A stretch of 24,229 nucleotides of DNA from Crocinitomicaceae bacterium (lineage in GTDB: Bacteria > Bacteroidota > Bacteroidia > Flavobacteriales_D > Crocinitomicaceae): assembly GCA_041596415.1 (NCBI GenBank), contig JBFHIN010000001.1, forward strand, positions 1-24,229. The letters are read 5' to 3'. The position numbers and the translations under genes were made by a program. Positions 1,589 through 10,591 of the stretch are shown here, one piece after another (positions within the stretch are counted from its first letter, which is position 1; each line of letters opens with the position of its first letter). Under the pieces are notes generated by a model that did no database searches, was not told the origin of the DNA, and was given only the letters and a program-made list of their open reading frames with translations.

Positions 1589-2224
1589 TTACTTCACCTT
1601 ATTTTTAAACTTTGTCAACCCCTGAAACACCATATCCATCACTTGTTCAATAGGGAGTGCATTATTGGCTGATACTGTTGTTCCTCCTACATTTGTTTGG
1701 AAGCTGCCAATGCTCCTAAATCCTCTGGCTCTGGTTACTTTTCGATATTTGCAACGCTTATCAATACCGTACGCTTTCATTTTAACCTTCACGAATGGGT
1801 GAAGTCTTGAGTAGTTCGCGTTTGGTCCGCCAACACCAACTCCTTTGGTGAGTCCGACAGTGATCTTGAACTTTACGTAATACTCCATGTATTCTGTTTT
1901 CATGGCCTGACGTTTTGTGCCCGTTGGAAAACCTCCAACCTGTTCAGAAGTAGCAGCTGTTTTGCGTTCCACACCTTTAGAATTCATAGAATATACGTAC
2001 TGAGAAGGAACCATTAATTCTTGCTGAACAATGTTCTTTATTTCGTTTACTGTCGAATCGTACAAGCGGGTAGGAATGGACAAACGTCCTGAATTATTGT
2101 TAAATACGAATTGATTGGTCAGACGATTATCAATGAACCAACGAACTTTGTAAATACCGGCATTTTCTTGTGCAAAGGAGCACAGTTTCATAAAAAGAAA
2201 ACCAATAAATAAAAATCGCTTCAT
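1589..2224 (-). CDS. Exported basic hypothetical protein; likely start is the ATG at 2224 (MKRFLFIGF), not 2272
   Basis: Signal-peptide-like MKRFLFIGFLFMKLCSFA|QE. No family motif recognised. Confidence 0.7.
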   Translation of the reverse strand: MKRFLFIGFLFMKLCSFAQENAGIYKVRWFIDNRLTNQFVFNNNSGRLSIPTRLYDSTVNEIKNIVQQELMVPSQYVYSMNSKGVERKTAATSEQVGGFPTGTKRQAMKTEYMEYYVKFKITVGLTKGVGVGGPNANYSRLHPFVKVKMKAYGIDKRCKYRKVTRARGFRSIGSFQTNVGGTTVSANNALPIEQVMDMVFQGLTKFKNKVK

Positions 2225-2365
2225 ACGCTTATAAATTTGGGCGCAAGTTACAGAATTAAAAGGATACAACAATCCAAAGTAATTGTGTAATTCATCATGT
2301 AATAATGTGAAAAATTAAATGTGTGAAACTTACACAATAACTGATCATATAACTCGTTTGCAATG

Positions 2366-2470
2366 AAGTCATCAAGAAATTCCTTTAATGAAAGGGAATG
2401 CCAACCGACCCGGCAGGGCACGGTGGAAAAACGATGTGAGGCTCGCGCCTAAACAAATATGCGAACTCCG
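2366..2470 (+). ncRNA. SAM riboswitch aptamer, SAM-I/IV-variant-like (no P4; P5 hairpin 3' of P1)
   Basis: P1 CAUC(2370-73)/GAUG(2433-36). J1/2 AAGA. P2 AUUCCUUU/AAGGGAAU (2379-2399). P3 CCAACC(2401-06)/GGUGG(2422-26) with the AA/U internal loop. P5 AGGC-UCGC-GCCU (2439-2450). The element is a GC-rich island in an AT-rich leader. Confidence 0.85.
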
Positions 2471-2521
2471 TGATTTTATTCTTGATGGTGTATATGTTTA
2501 ACACTAAAAACTTCATACATC

Positions 2522-3202
2522 ATGAAAAAAAAGAAATTGAATTTTGTTTCATTAAAAGCTGTAAAGCGGTTTTTTGAAAAATTGTATCAGAGGCGAAATA
2601 CAACTGTTTCATTACCTCACTCAGAGAAGAATTTAGCTCCAGATGGTTCTTCAAAAGGCTCTCTTTTTAGTTCAGATTTCCCTCGGGAGGATGAAGTGGA
2701 TTTTTTGTATGACAACTGTGGTGGTTTATGTGGTTGTGGACCAAATAAATGCCGCTATGACGATTATTTTTTTGGTTTACACATGGCTCTAGATATCCAT
2801 GTTCAAAACATGAAAAATGCTAAAAAAGAGAAAGTAATTGATTACTTAACGTGCAATCAGATACAACTTTTGTATAAGAACGGAGAAGTTAACCAATTTT
2901 TAATAAAAACTGACCTAATCGAAAATAACTACGTGTCTTTAAATTCAACTCCATGTTTGGATCCTCTATTGCTTGTAGTCCGTCATGATAAATTACAAAC
3001 GCATATAGACGTTTCTAGTTTGGATCGATACTTAATGATTGGTTTTGACGAAAAAAGAGAGATCATCGGAGTTACTGTGTTGAATTCGAATGCTAATGGG
3101 TCGTTTTTTTTATTGACGCTGGCAAAATTTATCTTGATCATTTCGCAACGTGAATTGACTGAGTGGAATGGAATACTGAGCTTTAATGCGTTAACAAATT
3201 GA
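2522..3202 (+). CDS. Hypothetical protein with a Cys cluster (CGGLCGCGPNKC) and a possible divergent DUF192-like C-terminal domain
   Basis: 226-aa ORF placed between the riboswitch and a strong terminator. The C-terminal half follows the DUF192 pattern by eye (LLLVV..THIDV...YLMIGFDEKREIIGV...AKFILII). The function call is weak. Confidence 0.65.
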   Translation: MKKKKLNFVSLKAVKRFFEKLYQRRNTTVSLPHSEKNLAPDGSSKGSLFSSDFPREDEVDFLYDNCGGLCGCGPNKCRYDDYFFGLHMALDIHVQNMKNAKKEKVIDYLTCNQIQLLYKNGEVNQFLIKTDLIENNYVSLNSTPCLDPLLLVVRHDKLQTHIDVSSLDRYLMIGFDEKREIIGVTVLNSNANGSFFLLTLAKFILIISQRELTEWNGILSFNALTN

Positions 3203-3204
3203 TG

Positions 3205-3244
3205 AAAAAGGCTCCGAATTTACATTTGTAGGAGCCTTTTTTTA
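3205..3244. terminator. Bidirectional intrinsic terminator
   Basis: AAAAAGGCTCC(3205-15)...GGAGCCTTTTTTTT(3231-44) between convergent genes. Confidence 0.85.
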
Positions 3245-3424
3245 TGCTGATATGCACAGGTTACTTTCCTTGAACACAAAAAAAAAAATTGATGAGATAC
3301 CATTAGGTGTGAATTTAGTAGAAGAGAATCTTAGAATAAACGATTTCTAAATTACACATTCCATGAGCGACCCTTTAAAGTACTTCAAAAAGCATCAAAA
3401 GTATTGAAGAAATAGTTTTTCTTT

Positions 3425-6916: not shown

Positions 6917-8077
6917 TTAGAAATTCACGGATTTAAAAAACGCTTTATTGGGTACTTGACCCTCGCTGTCTTGCGAATATTCAGGTTTGAAACTAGTTAC
7001 CTCATAAACTTCCACTTCGCCGTAATTTTTAAGATCCTTGATTCCTCTGTTTTCAGTGATGAAATATTCTTTCACTGCCTCATTCACTTCTTTGCTCACG
7101 ATTATACTGTTTTTAGTAGAAACACCTTCGAGCCTACTTGCAAGATTTACAGTGTCTCCCCAAATATCGAAAATGATGGATTCTTGACCAATTACACCGC
7201 CAACTACGTCACCGACAGCGATACCGAACTTTATATACCAAGGGTTTAAACCATGGTATTTTTCTTTTTTGGCTATTTCGTTCACCAAATGTTTCATTTC
7301 TATAGCACAGCAAACAGCCAAAATTGTCGAGTTTTCATTTTCGCTAAGAATTCCTGAGGCCGCCATGTAGGAGTCTCCGATGGTTTTTATTTTTTGTATA
7401 CCATATTTTTGTATGACATAATCAAATTCAGTAAAATACGTATTGAGTTTAGCTACCAATAACGATAGATCTATTTCTTTGGAAAGTTTGGTGTAACTGG
7501 CAAAATCAGAAAACATAACCGCCACATTAGAATAAATAACATGCTTTTCATTACCGGACACGCTTAATTGATCCAATGCTTTCTTTGGAATCATTTTCGA
7601 AAGAAGTCTTTTATCTTCTTGGTTTTGTTTTTTCAGTTGCTGAAATGCTTTTTCAATGTTGTAATTGGTTTCCGCTTGTTTTATAAGCGCTTTTAATCGA
7701 TTCTTAAGTTTAATTGGTGACAGTTCTTTTGATAAAAAGTCTGATGCACCTAGTCCAAAAGCTTCTTCAGACAATTCATCAGTTTCTTGACTTGTGGAAT
7801 AGAAAACAAAAGGGATGGAGTTGAATCGTTTGTGTTCTTTGATAATTTTCAAAAAGTCAAAACCATTGAGTTCAGGCATCGATATGTCGCAAATTACCAA
7901 ACCTATTTCTTCTTTTTTCAGGAAATACAGCGCTTCATTTGCAGAATTGGCTAAATGAATTTTAATATTTTCCTTTTCCATTGCTTTTTGCAGAATCAAT
8001 TGATCAAAAGGATTGTCGTCAACAATTAATACGGGTATTATCTGATCTTGAAGTTGAATTTCTTCCTGGATATGCAT
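6917..8077 (-). CDS. Receiver domain + class III adenylate cyclase
   Basis: REC: LIVDD, ICDISMPELNG, FLSK. Cyclase: MFSDFASYT, KIKTIGDSYMA, FDIWGDTVNLASRLE. Confidence 0.92.
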   Translation of the reverse strand: MHIQEEIQLQDQIIPVLIVDDNPFDQLILQKAMEKENIKIHLANSANEALYFLKKEEIGLVICDISMPELNGFDFLKIIKEHKRFNSIPFVFYSTSQETDELSEEAFGLGASDFLSKELSPIKLKNRLKALIKQAETNYNIEKAFQQLKKQNQEDKRLLSKMIPKKALDQLSVSGNEKHVIYSNVAVMFSDFASYTKLSKEIDLSLLVAKLNTYFTEFDYVIQKYGIQKIKTIGDSYMAASGILSENENSTILAVCCAIEMKHLVNEIAKKEKYHGLNPWYIKFGIAVGDVVGGVIGQESIIFDIWGDTVNLASRLEGVSTKNSIIVSKEVNEAVKEYFITENRGIKDLKNYGEVEVYEVTSFKPEYSQDSEGQVPNKAFFKSVNF

Positions 8078-8200
8078 TACGAAAGTGTTGAAATTAGTGT
8101 AGTGTTTAAATTAGTCAAATATGTGTTCGCTAAATATAGCACTTTTTAAAATTCAATTAACTATATTTAAGCGTTTAGAATTCAGTAAATAAAATAAGAT

Positions 8201-8899
8201 ATGATGAAGGTTATATCCATCGAAGACAATGAATTGGATAGATTAGTGCTTCAAAAATTAATCCAGCAAAATGATCAGTTAGAGTTAATAGGAGAATATG
8301 AAAGCGCTTTGGCAGCTATTTCAATTATCCGTTCTGCAAAACCTGATTTAATTTTTTTGGACATAGAATTACCAGGGATGACGGGTATAGAATTTATCAA
8401 TTCATTGAAAGAAGTTCCTCAAATAATTTTTGTAACAAGTCATGAAAATTATGCGTTGGATGCTTTTGAAAATGATGTAACCGATTTTCTATTGAAACCC
8501 TTGGAGAAAAAACGATTTAATATCGCAGTTAATCGTGCACTTAAAATTCAGGAGTGGCTTTCCTTGGAATCAACCGATGATCGCTCCGTTTTTATTAGGG
8601 TAGATAGAGATGATGTGAAGATTTTTTTAAAGGATATAATTTACGTTGAAGCTATGGCTGATTATGTGAAAGTTCACACCACTGAAGATAAATATTTGGT
8701 ATTGTCTACCATGAAGTCAATTGCTACTAAATTGCCTGAGGAAGAATTTGTTAGGATCCATAGATCCTTCATTGTAAATATTAACCATATAGACAGTTTT
8801 AACGGAAGTGAAGTGGTTATAAATGGATTAACAATTCCAGTAAGTAGATCTTGTAAAAAAGAATTGAAAGGTGCAATGTCAAATGCGGCTAAACGGTAA
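8201..8899 (+). CDS. LytTR-family response regulator (REC + LytTR)
   Basis: IEDNELD, FLDIELPGMTG, FLLKP, then IIYVEAMADYVKVH and FVRIHRSFIVN. Confidence 0.95.
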   Translation: MMKVISIEDNELDRLVLQKLIQQNDQLELIGEYESALAAISIIRSAKPDLIFLDIELPGMTGIEFINSLKEVPQIIFVTSHENYALDAFENDVTDFLLKPLEKKRFNIAVNRALKIQEWLSLESTDDRSVFIRVDRDDVKIFLKDIIYVEAMADYVKVHTTEDKYLVLSTMKSIATKLPEEEFVRIHRSFIVNINHIDSFNGSEVVINGLTIPVSRSCKKELKGAMSNAAKR

Positions 8900-8971
8900 A
8901 AACTGACCTTTTATCGATTTTGACCGAATAAAAGACTTGTAACTCCTTATAATTATTAAAAAACAGCAGAA

Positions 8972-10591
8972 ATGACTAAGAATGTTCCTGTACCTATTAA
9001 CGAGGAAAGAAGATTAAACGCTTTACTTTCGTATGATATCTTAGATACAGCAAGTGAGGAATCTTTTGATAACTTAACCAAACTTGCAGCCGAAATATGT
9101 GGAACGCCCATTTCACTGGTAAGTTTACTGGATGATAAAAGGCAGTGGTTTAAAAGTAAAGTAGGATTGAATGCGGACGAAACACCTAGGGAAATTTCCT
9201 TTTGCCAACATGCCATAATGGACGTGGATGTTTTTGAAGTTGAAAATGCTCTTGAAGACGAAAGATTTAAAGATAATGTTCTTGTACAAGGGAGTCCAAA
9301 TATCCGATTCTATGCAGGACATCCTTTAATCGATGATAATGGATACGCACTTGGTACTTTGTGTGTGATCGATGAGGAGCCAAGGATATTAACCGAACAA
9401 CAAAAAAATGCATTAAAAATTCTGGCTCGACAAGTTATTAGTCAAATCCAAGTTAGAAAACACAGAGAACAGAATAAAGAAATATTAAGTGAACTATTCA
9501 AGTTGACGAATCTTCAAAATGCAATTTTGAACGGTACTACCCATTCCATAATTTCTACTGATGAGCACGGAATAATAAAATCTTTTAACAAAGGTGCAGA
9601 GAGATTATTGGGATATAATGCTGAAGAATTGATTAACAAAGAATCACCGGCAATAATACATGTTCCTGAGGAAGTAGTAGCTAGAGCCAAAGTGTTGAGC
9701 GAGGAGTTGGGAATTGAAATTGAACCCGGTTTTGACGCATTTGTTGCAAAAGCCAAAACAATGGACGTGGCAGATGAAAATGAATGGACTTATGTGCGAA
9801 AGGATGGTAGTAAGGTTCCAGTATGGTTATCAGTTACAGCGCTAAAAGACAATGACGGTAACGTAACTGGCTATTTGGGTATTGCAAGTGACATTTCGGA
9901 ACGTAAGAAATACATCGATCAAATTGAAAAAGTAAATAAGGAATTGGATCAATTCTCCTACATTGTGTCACATGACCTTAAGGCCCCCTTGAGAGCGATA
10001 TCTACACTGGTGGGATTCGTTGAAGAGGATTTGGAAGGTAAACTAGAAGGCGATGTTTTAGACAATTTTGAATTGATAAAATCGCGTGTTAAGCGCATGG
10101 AAGGTTTGATAAAAGGCGTGTTGGAATATTCTCGGGTAGGTAGGGCAAATGAAGAGAAAGTAGAATTCAGTTCATACGACGCCATTAAAGAAGTTACCTT
10201 AGGCTTTAACTCTGACAAATTTACAATTGTCATTCACAATAATCTTCCCAAGATTGAATACAATAGAACCCAATTTGAGCAAGTCGTTCAAAACTTAATT
10301 AGTAACGGTATAAAATATCACGACAAGGAAACAGGTTCGATTGAAGTTGGTTATAACTCGTTAGATGGGTTTCATGAGTTTTATGTTAAAGATGATGGTC
10401 CGGGTATAGAACCTCAATATCACGACAGAATTTTTGGTATTTTCCAAACTTTACAAGCACGTGATGAAATTGAAAGTACCGGGGTTGGTTTATCGATAGT
10501 AAAAAAGATCATTGAAGAACATGGAGGTAGCATTTCTCTAGAATCTGAATTAGGAAAAGGAAGTACATTCAGCTTTACTATTCCGAAATAA
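8972..10591 (+). CDS. Cytoplasmic GAF-PAS sensor histidine kinase
   Basis: GAF: [24 protein letters not shown]: [21 protein letters not shown]-box [10 protein letters not shown]-box [10 protein letters not shown]1 DDGPGI, G2 GVGLSIVK. Confidence 0.95.

What the first reader, a model, noticed from the sequence alone, without database searches (positions are those of the whole stretch)
2366..2470. Unannotated compact SAM-I/IV-like aptamer with a covarying ligand pocket
Seen: 5' AUCAAGA and 3' GAUG (P1 and J1/2), an 8-bp P2, P3 CC-AA-CC/GG-U-GG, no P4, and a P5 hairpin after P1. Established: in SAM-I-clan RNAs the P1 A-U/U-A pairs, the J1/2 G, the adjacent C-G pair and the AA/U internal loop contact SAM, and all are present here. 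The canonical G-C pair of GCAACC/GGUGC is swapped to C-G, a compensatory change that supports a real structure. P1 is only 4 bp and I cannot find a convincing PK-2 partner (at best GCA 2413-15 with UGC 2460-62), so this may be a minimal variant.
Basis: partly seen in the sequence, partly recalled or inferred. Interest (0 to 1): 0.72.

Follow-up and report, generated by a model that had tools for sequence, protein, structure and literature searches.

The report
Genuine SAM-I/IV riboswitch, orphan cargo
This stretch is a real but ordinary member of a known class of RNA switches that sense S-adenosylmethionine (SAM); it most likely hides the start codon of the next gene when SAM is plentiful, and the unusual part is that this gene is an orphan of unknown function rather than a methionine gene.

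Summary
Window 2364-2466 (+) matches Rfam RF01725 (SAM-I/IV riboswitch) over the whole model at 55 bits, against a gathering score of 41.1.

In 27 distinct relatives from the same genus, the aptamer pairs are kept with compensatory changes. The RNA is therefore a new member of a known kind, not a new or minimal class.

Downstream, a conserved strand (2479-2487) can pair with the 5' half of P1 plus J1/2. It can instead pair with the start-codon region. This is the design of a translational OFF switch that hides the AUG in a Bacteroidota genome. Such genomes do not use Shine-Dalgarno sites.

The cargo is a 226-aa orphan. Methionine genes in this genome sit behind SAM-I switches instead.

This scan has reported SAM-I/IV switches with orphan cargo before, in many other genomes, and has already followed up this gene. 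SAM binding and regulation remain untested. Interest is low to moderate.

The parts
2364..2466 (+). SAM-I/IV riboswitch aptamer (whole Rfam match)
   Evidence: RF01725, 55 bits against a gathering score of 41.1, model positions 1-99 of 99. It is the only copy in the genome.
2370..2373 (+). P1 5' strand, CAUC. It pairs with 2433-2436 when SAM is bound and with 2484-2487 in the alternative fold.
   Evidence: The innermost pair covaries: CG 17, UA 5, UG 3.
2374..2378 (+). J1/2, AAGAA, with the conserved G2376 of the SAM pocket
   Evidence: A8, A9, G10 and A11 are invariant in 27 relatives. They align to the upper-case AAGAG of the model.
2379..2399 (+). P2: an uninterrupted 8-bp hairpin with a 5-nt loop, no kink-turn or internal loop
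   Evidence: MFE fold. Five of six counted pairs change on both sides in relatives.
2401..2426 (+). P3, with the AA (2403-2404) / U2424 internal loop and a GGCA apical loop (2412-2415)
   Evidence: 100% of cells are paired in relatives, and two apical pairs covary.
2433..2436 (+). P1 3' strand, GAUG
2439..2450 (+).
   Evidence: 89.8% of cells are paired and two pairs covary.
2460..2462 (+). PK-2 3' strand, UGC, pairing with GCA 2413-2415 of the P3 loop
   Evidence: 79.7% of cells are paired, against 5-42% when slid. The terminal pair is GC 14 / AU 12 across relatives. This is the same position as the L3-tail pairing readable in the env87 crystal sequence (PMC5393176).
2479..2487 (+). Anti-P1 (anti-aptamer) strand, UUCUUGAUG. 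It is complementary to 2370-2378.
   Evidence: All 9 pairs form in the window. 94.2% of cells are paired in relatives, against 41-64% when slid; column 7-177 reads CG 18, UA 5, UG 4. The helix is in the unconstrained MFE.
2485..2523 (+). Start-codon sequestering hairpin. Its core helix is 2485-2493 with 2515-2523 and covers A-3 and the A and U of the AUG.
   Evidence: The platform folded alone gives -11.5 kcal/mol. The anti-P1 strand pairs with the start region more than in shuffled controls in 27 of 27 relatives.
2472..2477 (+). U-rich tract that can extend the sequestering hairpin by pairing with the A-rich codons at 2533-2538
   Evidence: MFE of the platform alone. Prediction only.
2522..3202 (+). 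Controlled gene: a 226-aa orphan protein (P0001). The AUG is 55 nt after the aptamer.
   Evidence: ORF. No Pfam or NCBIfam family. Only its own cluster was found among 5.8 billion proteins. Residues 9-102 resemble stand-alone 4-Cys proteins and residues 114-218 resemble a second module, both found behind the same switch in relatives.
2363..2369 (+). Possible 5' extension of the ON-state helix (AUGAAGU with ACUUCAU 2510-2516). It is relevant only if transcription starts upstream of it.
   Evidence: MFE of 2355-2545. I did not see it conserved in relatives, and the transcription start is unknown.

Best explanation
Window 2364-2466 is the ligand-binding domain of a SAM-I/IV-class riboswitch in the 5' leader of the orphan gene 2522-3202. 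It works with a downstream expression platform (2472-2538) as a translational OFF switch.

At high SAM, the ligand locks P1 (2370-2373 with 2433-2436), J1/2 and the short PK-2. The strand 2479-2487 is then free to close a hairpin with 2515-2523. This hairpin buries A-3 and the AUG, which in a Shine-Dalgarno-independent Bacteroidota ribosome system should block initiation.

At low SAM, the same strand instead forms a 9-bp helix with 2370-2378. That breaks P1 and the pocket and leaves the AUG open.

Shown here: family membership, conservation and covariation of the aptamer, PK-2 and the anti-P1 helix, and the two mutually exclusive pairings.

Inferred: SAM binding, the direction of regulation, and that the output is translation.
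For: - Family match: RF01725 at 55 bits against a gathering score of 41.1, full length.
- Pocket nucleotides: all conserved pocket nucleotides of the model are present and invariant in 27 relatives.
- Aptamer pairs: 92.1% of cells paired, against 44% or less when slid, with 12 pairs changed on both sides.
- PK-2: it covaries, GC 14 / AU 12.
- Anti-P1 helix: 9 of 9 pairs in the window; 94.2% paired in relatives, against 41-64% when slid, with CG/UA/UG exchange. It also tracks a different J1/2 sequence in a second subtype, where GUAUUUCGA faces UCGAAAUAC and GUAUUCCGAA faces UUCGGAAUAC (read directly).
- Unconstrained MFE: it uses the anti-P1 helix.
- Platform folded alone: the anti-P1 strand pairs with the start region in 27 of 27 leaders, mean 5.4 expected pairs against 3.3 shuffled.
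- Accessibility: mean unpaired probability of -8..+6 is 0.49 with anti-P1 forced and 0.29 with the aptamer forced.
- Energy balance: ensemble energies for the window are -49.5 (anti-P1 forced) and -43.9 kcal/mol (aptamer forced). Ligand energy is thus needed to favour the OFF fold.
- Spacing: the aptamer-to-AUG distance is held at 39-57 nt.
- No alternative output: no intrinsic terminator was predicted on the + strand.
- Host: the genome is Bacteroidota, with 73 T9SS sorting domains and window-type aptamers found only in Crocinitomicaceae/Flavobacteriales-labelled genomes. There, initiation depends on mRNA structure and A-3, not Shine-Dalgarno sites (PMC6847099). A-3 is invariant in the alignment.
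Against: - No binding, probing, reporter or RNA-seq evidence exists.
- For the window itself, the predicted accessibility change is small: 0.31 against 0.24 for -8..+6, and none for the AUG triplet. An inner 6-bp part of the hairpin can persist in both states.
- The relatives are close kin, so the covariation counts and the 27 of 27 overstate independent support.
- The transcription start is unknown. The window lacks the bipartite upstream motif seen in 21 of 28 relatives.
- The cargo has no known link to SAM or methionine.
Confidence: 0.72

Rival explanations
1. It is the same SAM-I/IV aptamer, but the physiological output is transcript level rather than a direct block of initiation. The mechanism would be Rho-dependent termination or faster decay of the untranslated mRNA.
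For: The predicted change in start-site accessibility in the window is small. Translational riboswitches often also act through Rho or RNases (general knowledge, not tested here).
Against: No intrinsic terminator was predicted on the + strand. The conserved alternative partner of the anti-P1 strand is the start-codon region itself, in 27 of 27 leaders. This fits occlusion of initiation as the primary event.
Confidence: 0.15
2. The aptamer has drifted to another ligand, such as SAH or another adenosyl-sulfur compound. This would explain why it controls non-methionine genes.
For: The cargo genes here and in relatives have no recognisable SAM or methionine function. A sister subtype in the genus does vary J1/2.
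Against: In the window, every conserved pocket position of the SAM-I/IV model is canonical and invariant across the 27 relatives. The score is well above the family threshold.
Confidence: 0.05
3. It is a decaying or chance look-alike with no regulatory role.
For: It is the single copy in this genome, and the gene behind it is an orphan.
Against: E = 1.1e-6. All helices are intact, relatives show compensatory changes, and a complete, conserved platform lies at a fixed distance from the AUG.
Confidence: 0.02

Closest known systems
SAM-I/IV riboswitch (Rfam RF01725, 'SAM-I-IV-variant', Weinberg et al. 2010, PMC2864571; crystallised env87 aptamer, PDB 4L81, sequence in PMC5393176)
   Same: It gives a full-length match above threshold. 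It has the SAM-clan core: P1 A-U/U-A pairs, the J1/2 G, and the CAACC/GGUG loop. P2 is uninterrupted and has no PK-1. A hairpin follows P1, and the P3 loop pairs with the 3' tail (PK-2).
   Different: - PK-2 is only 3 bp, from a 4-nt loop. In the env87 sequence I read 6 complementary bases (ACGGAC/GUCCGU).
- There is no extra hairpin between P3 and P1. env87 and two relatives (L024, L022) have one.
- The output hairpin hides the AUG rather than a Shine-Dalgarno site.
- The cargo is an orphan gene, not a methionine or SAM gene.
SAM-I riboswitch (RF00162)
   Same: It has the same ligand-pocket nucleotides. The same genome uses two SAM-I switches, one in front of a homocysteine S-methyltransferase gene.
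   Different: It has no four-way junction, no P4 between P3 and P1, no kink-turn in P2 and no PK-1. The SAM-I model does not hit this locus at E <= 0.001.
SAM-IV riboswitch (RF00634; cryo-EM structure, PMC6890682)
   Same: It has a 4-bp P1, a hairpin after P1, and PK-2 between the P3 loop and the 3' end.
   Different: SAM-IV has a split P2a/P2b and PK-1, and the window has neither. The SAM-IV model finds nothing in this genome at E <= 1.

Membership tests
SAM-I/IV riboswitch (RF01725) | Covariance-model score at or above the curated gathering score | tested here: met
   55 bits against 41.1, E = 1.1e-6, model positions 1-99 of 99.
SAM-I/IV riboswitch (RF01725) | SAM-clan binding core: P1 A-U/U-A pairs, the J1/2 AAGA with its G, and the C-G pair plus AA/U internal loop of P3 | tested here: met
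   A2371-U2435, U2372-A2434, G2376, C2402-G2425, A2403/A2404 and U2424 are all present. These positions are invariant in 27 relatives.
SAM-I/IV riboswitch (RF01725) | P2 without an internal loop or kink-turn, and no PK-1 (Weinberg 2010 supplement) | tested here: met
   P2 is a continuous 8-bp helix, 2379-2386 with 2392-2399, with a 5-nt loop.
SAM-I/IV riboswitch (RF01725) | PK-2 subdomain: a hairpin 3' of P1 plus a pseudoknot between the P3 loop and the 3' tail | tested here: met
   The hairpin is at 2439-2450. GCA 2413-15 pairs with UGC 2460-62. In relatives, 79.7% of cells are paired, against 5-42% when slid, with GC 14 / AU 12 at the terminal pair. It is short, at 2-4 bp in this lineage.
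SAM-I/IV riboswitch (RF01725) | Selective binding of SAM | not testable with these tools
   This needs in-line probing or ITC.
SAM-I/IV riboswitch (RF01725) | Cis-regulatory position in a 5' leader, with an alternative pairing that competes with P1 | tested here: met
   It lies 55 nt upstream of the AUG on the same strand. The anti-P1 helix is conserved and covaries.
SAM-I/IV riboswitch (RF01725) | Usual cargo of SAM riboswitches, methionine or SAM metabolism genes (typical, not defining) | tested here: not met
   The cargo has no Pfam or NCBIfam family. Nineteen cargo proteins of relatives gave only a transglutaminase-like core and TPR repeats.
SAM-I riboswitch (RF00162) | Four-way junction with P4, kink-turn in P2, PK-1; model match | tested here: not met
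   The locus is not among the RF00162 matches at E <= 0.001 in this genome. No P4 and no P2 internal loop are present.
SAM-IV riboswitch (RF00634) | Split P2a/P2b with PK-1, plus PK-2; model match | tested here: not met
   RF00634 gives no match at E <= 1 in the genome. P2 is not split.

The most novel reading that the evidence does not exclude
In this Crocinitomicaceae-like lineage, the SAM-I/IV aptamer, its AUG-hiding platform and, in most copies, a shared non-canonical bipartite upstream motif would form one portable regulatory cassette. This cassette would have been placed in front of a changing set of small orphan genes: 4-Cys proteins, a beta-domain module, secreted ~120-aa proteins and a transglutaminase-like protein. 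The window's gene is a fusion of two of these. Together they would make up an undescribed 'low-SAM' regulon, separate from methionine biosynthesis, which stays under SAM-I.
Probability: 0.4. Interest if true: 0.6.

Novelty: new member of a known kind. Interest (0 to 1): 0.3.

Why it matters
The RNA itself adds little. It is one more SAM-I/IV riboswitch that an Rfam scan would label. Two points have some value.

- It gives comparative support for a very short (2-4 bp) PK-2. It also supports a platform that hides the AUG and A-3 rather than a Shine-Dalgarno site, which is how a translational riboswitch has to work in Bacteroidota.
- It ties an orphan protein to intracellular SAM level, along with a family of unrelated small orphan genes in relatives. 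That gives a concrete condition, methionine/SAM starvation, under which to look for their function.

Tried and rejected
- RNA evidence: no RNA holder is listed for window 2200-3300. Only DNA runs from marine and sediment metagenomes hold it, so the transcription start and expression could not be examined.
- Taxon naming: a search with the neighbouring decarboxylase in genome contigs found no relative.
- 6S-Flavo RNA (RF01685): no match, but the control genomes did not respond either, so this is uninformative.
- Cargo proteins: PADLOC and PHROGs scans of the cargo protein and eight relatives' cargo proteins gave no family. I have no support for a defence or phage origin.
- Viral contigs: an exact window-type aptamer pattern gave 0 hits.
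- Terminator: the one terminator-like site the scan reports (2415-2399) is on the minus strand. It is simply the reverse complement of P3, and I reject it as a feature.
- Minus-strand ORF 2248-2421 (57 aa) overlaps the aptamer. I treat it as spurious.
- Literature: searches for SAM-I/IV with Bacteroidetes or hypothetical genes returned nothing, partly because the slash cannot be searched. The Trausch 2014 structure paper is not held, so what I say about it beyond the env87 sequence is from memory.

Full report
**What is there**

The window was scanned on both strands against all 4227 Rfam families. [quoted passage not shown] The match is at 2364-2466 on the + strand, 55 bits against a threshold of 41.1, E = 1.1e-6, covering model positions 1-99 of 99.

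Read against the sequence and the minimum-free-energy fold of 2364-2470, the parts are these.

- P1: C2370-G2436, A2371-U2435, U2372-A2434, C2373-G2433. The model's fifth pair is a U-U mismatch.
- J1/2: AAGAA 2374-2378, with G2376.
- P2: an uninterrupted 8-bp hairpin, 2379-2399.
- P3: 2401-2426, with A2403/A2404 opposite the bulged U2424 and an apical GGCA loop at 2412-2415.
- A six-base A-rich joiner leads back to P1.
- A 4-bp hairpin follows at 2439-2450.
- An A-rich tail ends in UGCG at 2460-2463.

**Is it more than chance**

The same model finds one copy in this 2.43-Mb, 90%-complete metagenome-assembled genome. It finds copies in 20 of the 53 other species genomes of the genus, up to six per genome.

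I aligned 27 distinct leaders of the window's subtype, from just before P1 to the second codon (alignment A1).

- For the aptamer structure including the pseudoknot, 92.1% of cells form standard pairs, against 26-44% when the 3' partners are slid by 1-3 columns.
- Twelve of 25 pairs show changes on both sides.
- All pocket positions are invariant.

These genomes are close kin, so the counts overstate the number of independent events. The slid controls keep relatedness, however, and still collapse.

**The pseudoknot**

The weak candidate it named is the right one.

- Counted alone, the three pairs (window G2413-C2462, C2414-G2461, A2415-U2460) are paired in 79.7% of cells, against 5-42% when slid.
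- The loop-terminal pair is G-C in 14 sequences and A-U in 12.
- The middle pair is C-G in 25 and U-G in one.
- The third pair forms in only 11 of 26.

PK-2 in this lineage is therefore 2-4 bp, and the window has all three.

Its place matches what can be read in the crystallised env87 SAM-I/IV RNA, whose sequence is printed in PMC5393176. There the P3 loop ACGGAC is complementary to the 3' end GUCCGU, after a hairpin that follows P1.

Weinberg et al. define the class by the SAM-I/SAM-IV core combined with a P2 that lacks the internal loop, and by no P2-tip pseudoknot (PMC2864571 and its supplement). The window fits this.

The SAM-I model hits two other loci in the genome but not this one at E <= 0.001. 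The SAM-IV model hits nothing at E <= 1. A 4-bp P1 is also described for SAM-IV (PMC6890682).

The element is thus a regular member of RF01725, not a new or minimal class. The 'swapped' C-G pair is the RF01725 consensus and is invariant in the genus. It differs only from SAM-I and env87.

**How it most likely works**

Forty-three bases after the aptamer lies UUCUUGAUG (2479-2487). It is perfectly complementary to CAUCAAGAA (2370-2378), that is, to the 5' strand of P1 plus J1/2.

- Across the 27 leaders, this 9-bp helix is paired in 94.2% of cells, against 41-64% when slid. It follows the P1 C-to-U change with G-to-A or a wobble: CG 18, UA 5, UG 4.
- In a second subtype in the genus, J1/2 reads UUYCGA instead of CAAGA. 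The downstream strand changes to match: GUAUUUCGA with UCGAAAUAC, and GUAUUCCGAA with UUCGGAAUAC.
- The unconstrained fold of the whole leader uses this anti-P1 helix.

When the platform is folded without the aptamer's 5' strand, the same strand closes a hairpin with the start region in all 27 leaders. The mean is 5.4 expected pairs, against 3.3 after shuffling the start region.

In the window, the core helix is AUGGUGUAU 2485-2493 with AUACAUCAU 2515-2523. This covers A-3 and the A and U of the AUG at 2522-2524. It can be extended by the U-tract 2472-2477 pairing with the A-rich codons.

Other supporting facts:

- The distance from aptamer to AUG is held at 39-57 nt.
- A at -3 is invariant.
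- No intrinsic terminator is predicted on this strand.
- The genome is Bacteroidota. It has 73 matches to the type IX secretion sorting domain. An exact pattern of the window-type aptamer occurs in 32 stretches among 185,579 species genomes. All 32 are Bacteroidota records, nearly all labelled Crocinitomicaceae, Crocinitomix, Cryomorphaceae, Flavobacteriales/Flavobacteriia or simply Bacteroidota/Bacteroidetes; five contigs come from MAGs labelled Chitinophaga pinensis.
- In this phylum mRNAs lack Shine-Dalgarno sites. Initiation is tuned by local structure and by A-3 (PMC6847099).

The design is therefore that of a translational OFF switch. SAM holds P1 and the pocket closed, and the freed strand hides the AUG. 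Without SAM, the strand invades P1 and the AUG is open.

**Limits of that inference**

Nothing here shows ligand binding or regulation.

- With the two states forced in silico, the mean unpaired probability of -8..+6 is 0.49 (ON) against 0.29 (OFF) across the 27 leaders.
- In the window itself it is only 0.31 against 0.24, with no gain at the AUG triplet. The reason is that a 6-bp inner part of the hairpin can persist in both states.
- The ensemble energies for the window are -49.5 kcal/mol with anti-P1 forced and -43.9 with the aptamer forced. This fits a switch that needs ligand energy to go OFF, but tertiary contacts are not modelled.
- The transcription start is unknown, and no RNA run holds the stretch.
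- Twenty-one of 28 relatives carry a bipartite motif, TGTWMY, 16-18 nt, GTWNWN, starting 36-42 nt before P1. The rate in shuffles is 0.9%. The window does not match it and shares only a CGTTTG at 2355-2360 at the equivalent place.

**Context**

The controlled gene (2522-3202, 226 aa) has no Pfam or NCBIfam family. It has no relative beyond its own cluster among 5.8 billion proteins.

- Residues 114-218 align with the C-terminal part of a 208-aa protein behind the same switch in another species (E = 2e-22).
- Residues 9-102 align with a complete 101-aa four-cysteine protein behind the same switch (E = 3e-5).

This agrees with the earlier follow-up of this gene in the scan (e1-5331216).

None of 19 cargo proteins of relatives that I scanned has a methionine or SAM family. 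The only hits were a transglutaminase-like core and TPR repeats. PADLOC and PHROGs gave nothing.

In the same genome, one SAM-I riboswitch precedes a homocysteine S-methyltransferase gene. Methionine control and this switch are therefore separate.

The scan has already reported SAM-I/IV switches with orphan cargo in many other genomes: 51 notes in at least 48 genomes.

**Verdict**

The element is a new member of a known riboswitch class, with a lineage-typical short PK-2 and an AUG-hiding platform. I put the aptamer identity at about 0.95 and the full mechanism as stated at about 0.7. Interest is low to moderate. It rests on the cargo and on the possible cassette or regulon, not on the RNA.

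Noticed in passing
L005, L020, L028, L026, L018, L022, L009, L025 and others: 36-42 nt upstream of P1. The window has only CGTTTG at 2355-2360.: A conserved bipartite motif, TGTWMY, 16-18 nt, GTWNWN, precedes 21 of 28 SAM-I/IV cassettes of the genus. The rate in shuffles is 0.9%. It does not resemble the usual Bacteroidota TTG / TAnnTTTG promoter. By my reading it looks more like an alternative (ECF-type) sigma promoter. The window does not fit it.
   Followed up: partly
L002, L004, L021, L034 (same genus) and L014 (another family of the order): A second SAM-I/IV subtype has J1/2 UUYCGA in place of CAAGA, while keeping the G, and P1 GUAU. Its downstream anti-P1 strand changes to match. Its cargo is a 117-123-aa protein that by eye resembles the C-terminal module of the window's protein. 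Whether the altered J1/2 changes ligand binding is open.
   Followed up: partly
G006 contig 41 (L012 and L023); G012 contig 40 (L024 and L010): In G006, two aptamers lie 183 nt apart, and I found no platform or ORF behind the first. This may be a tandem switch or a remnant. In G012, two complete cassettes with different cargo genes lie next to each other. One genome, G024, has six copies.
   Followed up: no
L024 and L022, between P3 and the 3' strand of P1: An optional extra hairpin is inserted in the joiner between P3 and P1. It sits in the same place as the extra helix I read in the env87 crystal sequence. The window lacks it.
   Followed up: no
window 2522-3202: The orphan protein looks like a fusion of two modules that stand alone behind the same switch in relatives. 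One is a C-x5-C-x-C-x3-C type four-cysteine segment, and the other is a beta-rich module with an RHDxLQTHID...NSNAxG signature.
   Followed up: partly
G000 contigs C428 and C303 (L029, L030): The genome's two SAM-I riboswitches precede a homocysteine S-methyltransferase gene (Pfam E = 4.5e-99) and a truncated ORF. By eye the truncated ORF looks like the start of a homoserine O-acetyltransferase, but Pfam gave no hit for it.
   Followed up: partly
window 6917-10591: This region holds a response-regulator-adenylate/guanylate cyclase fusion, a LytTR response regulator and a GAF-PAS histidine kinase.
   Followed up: no
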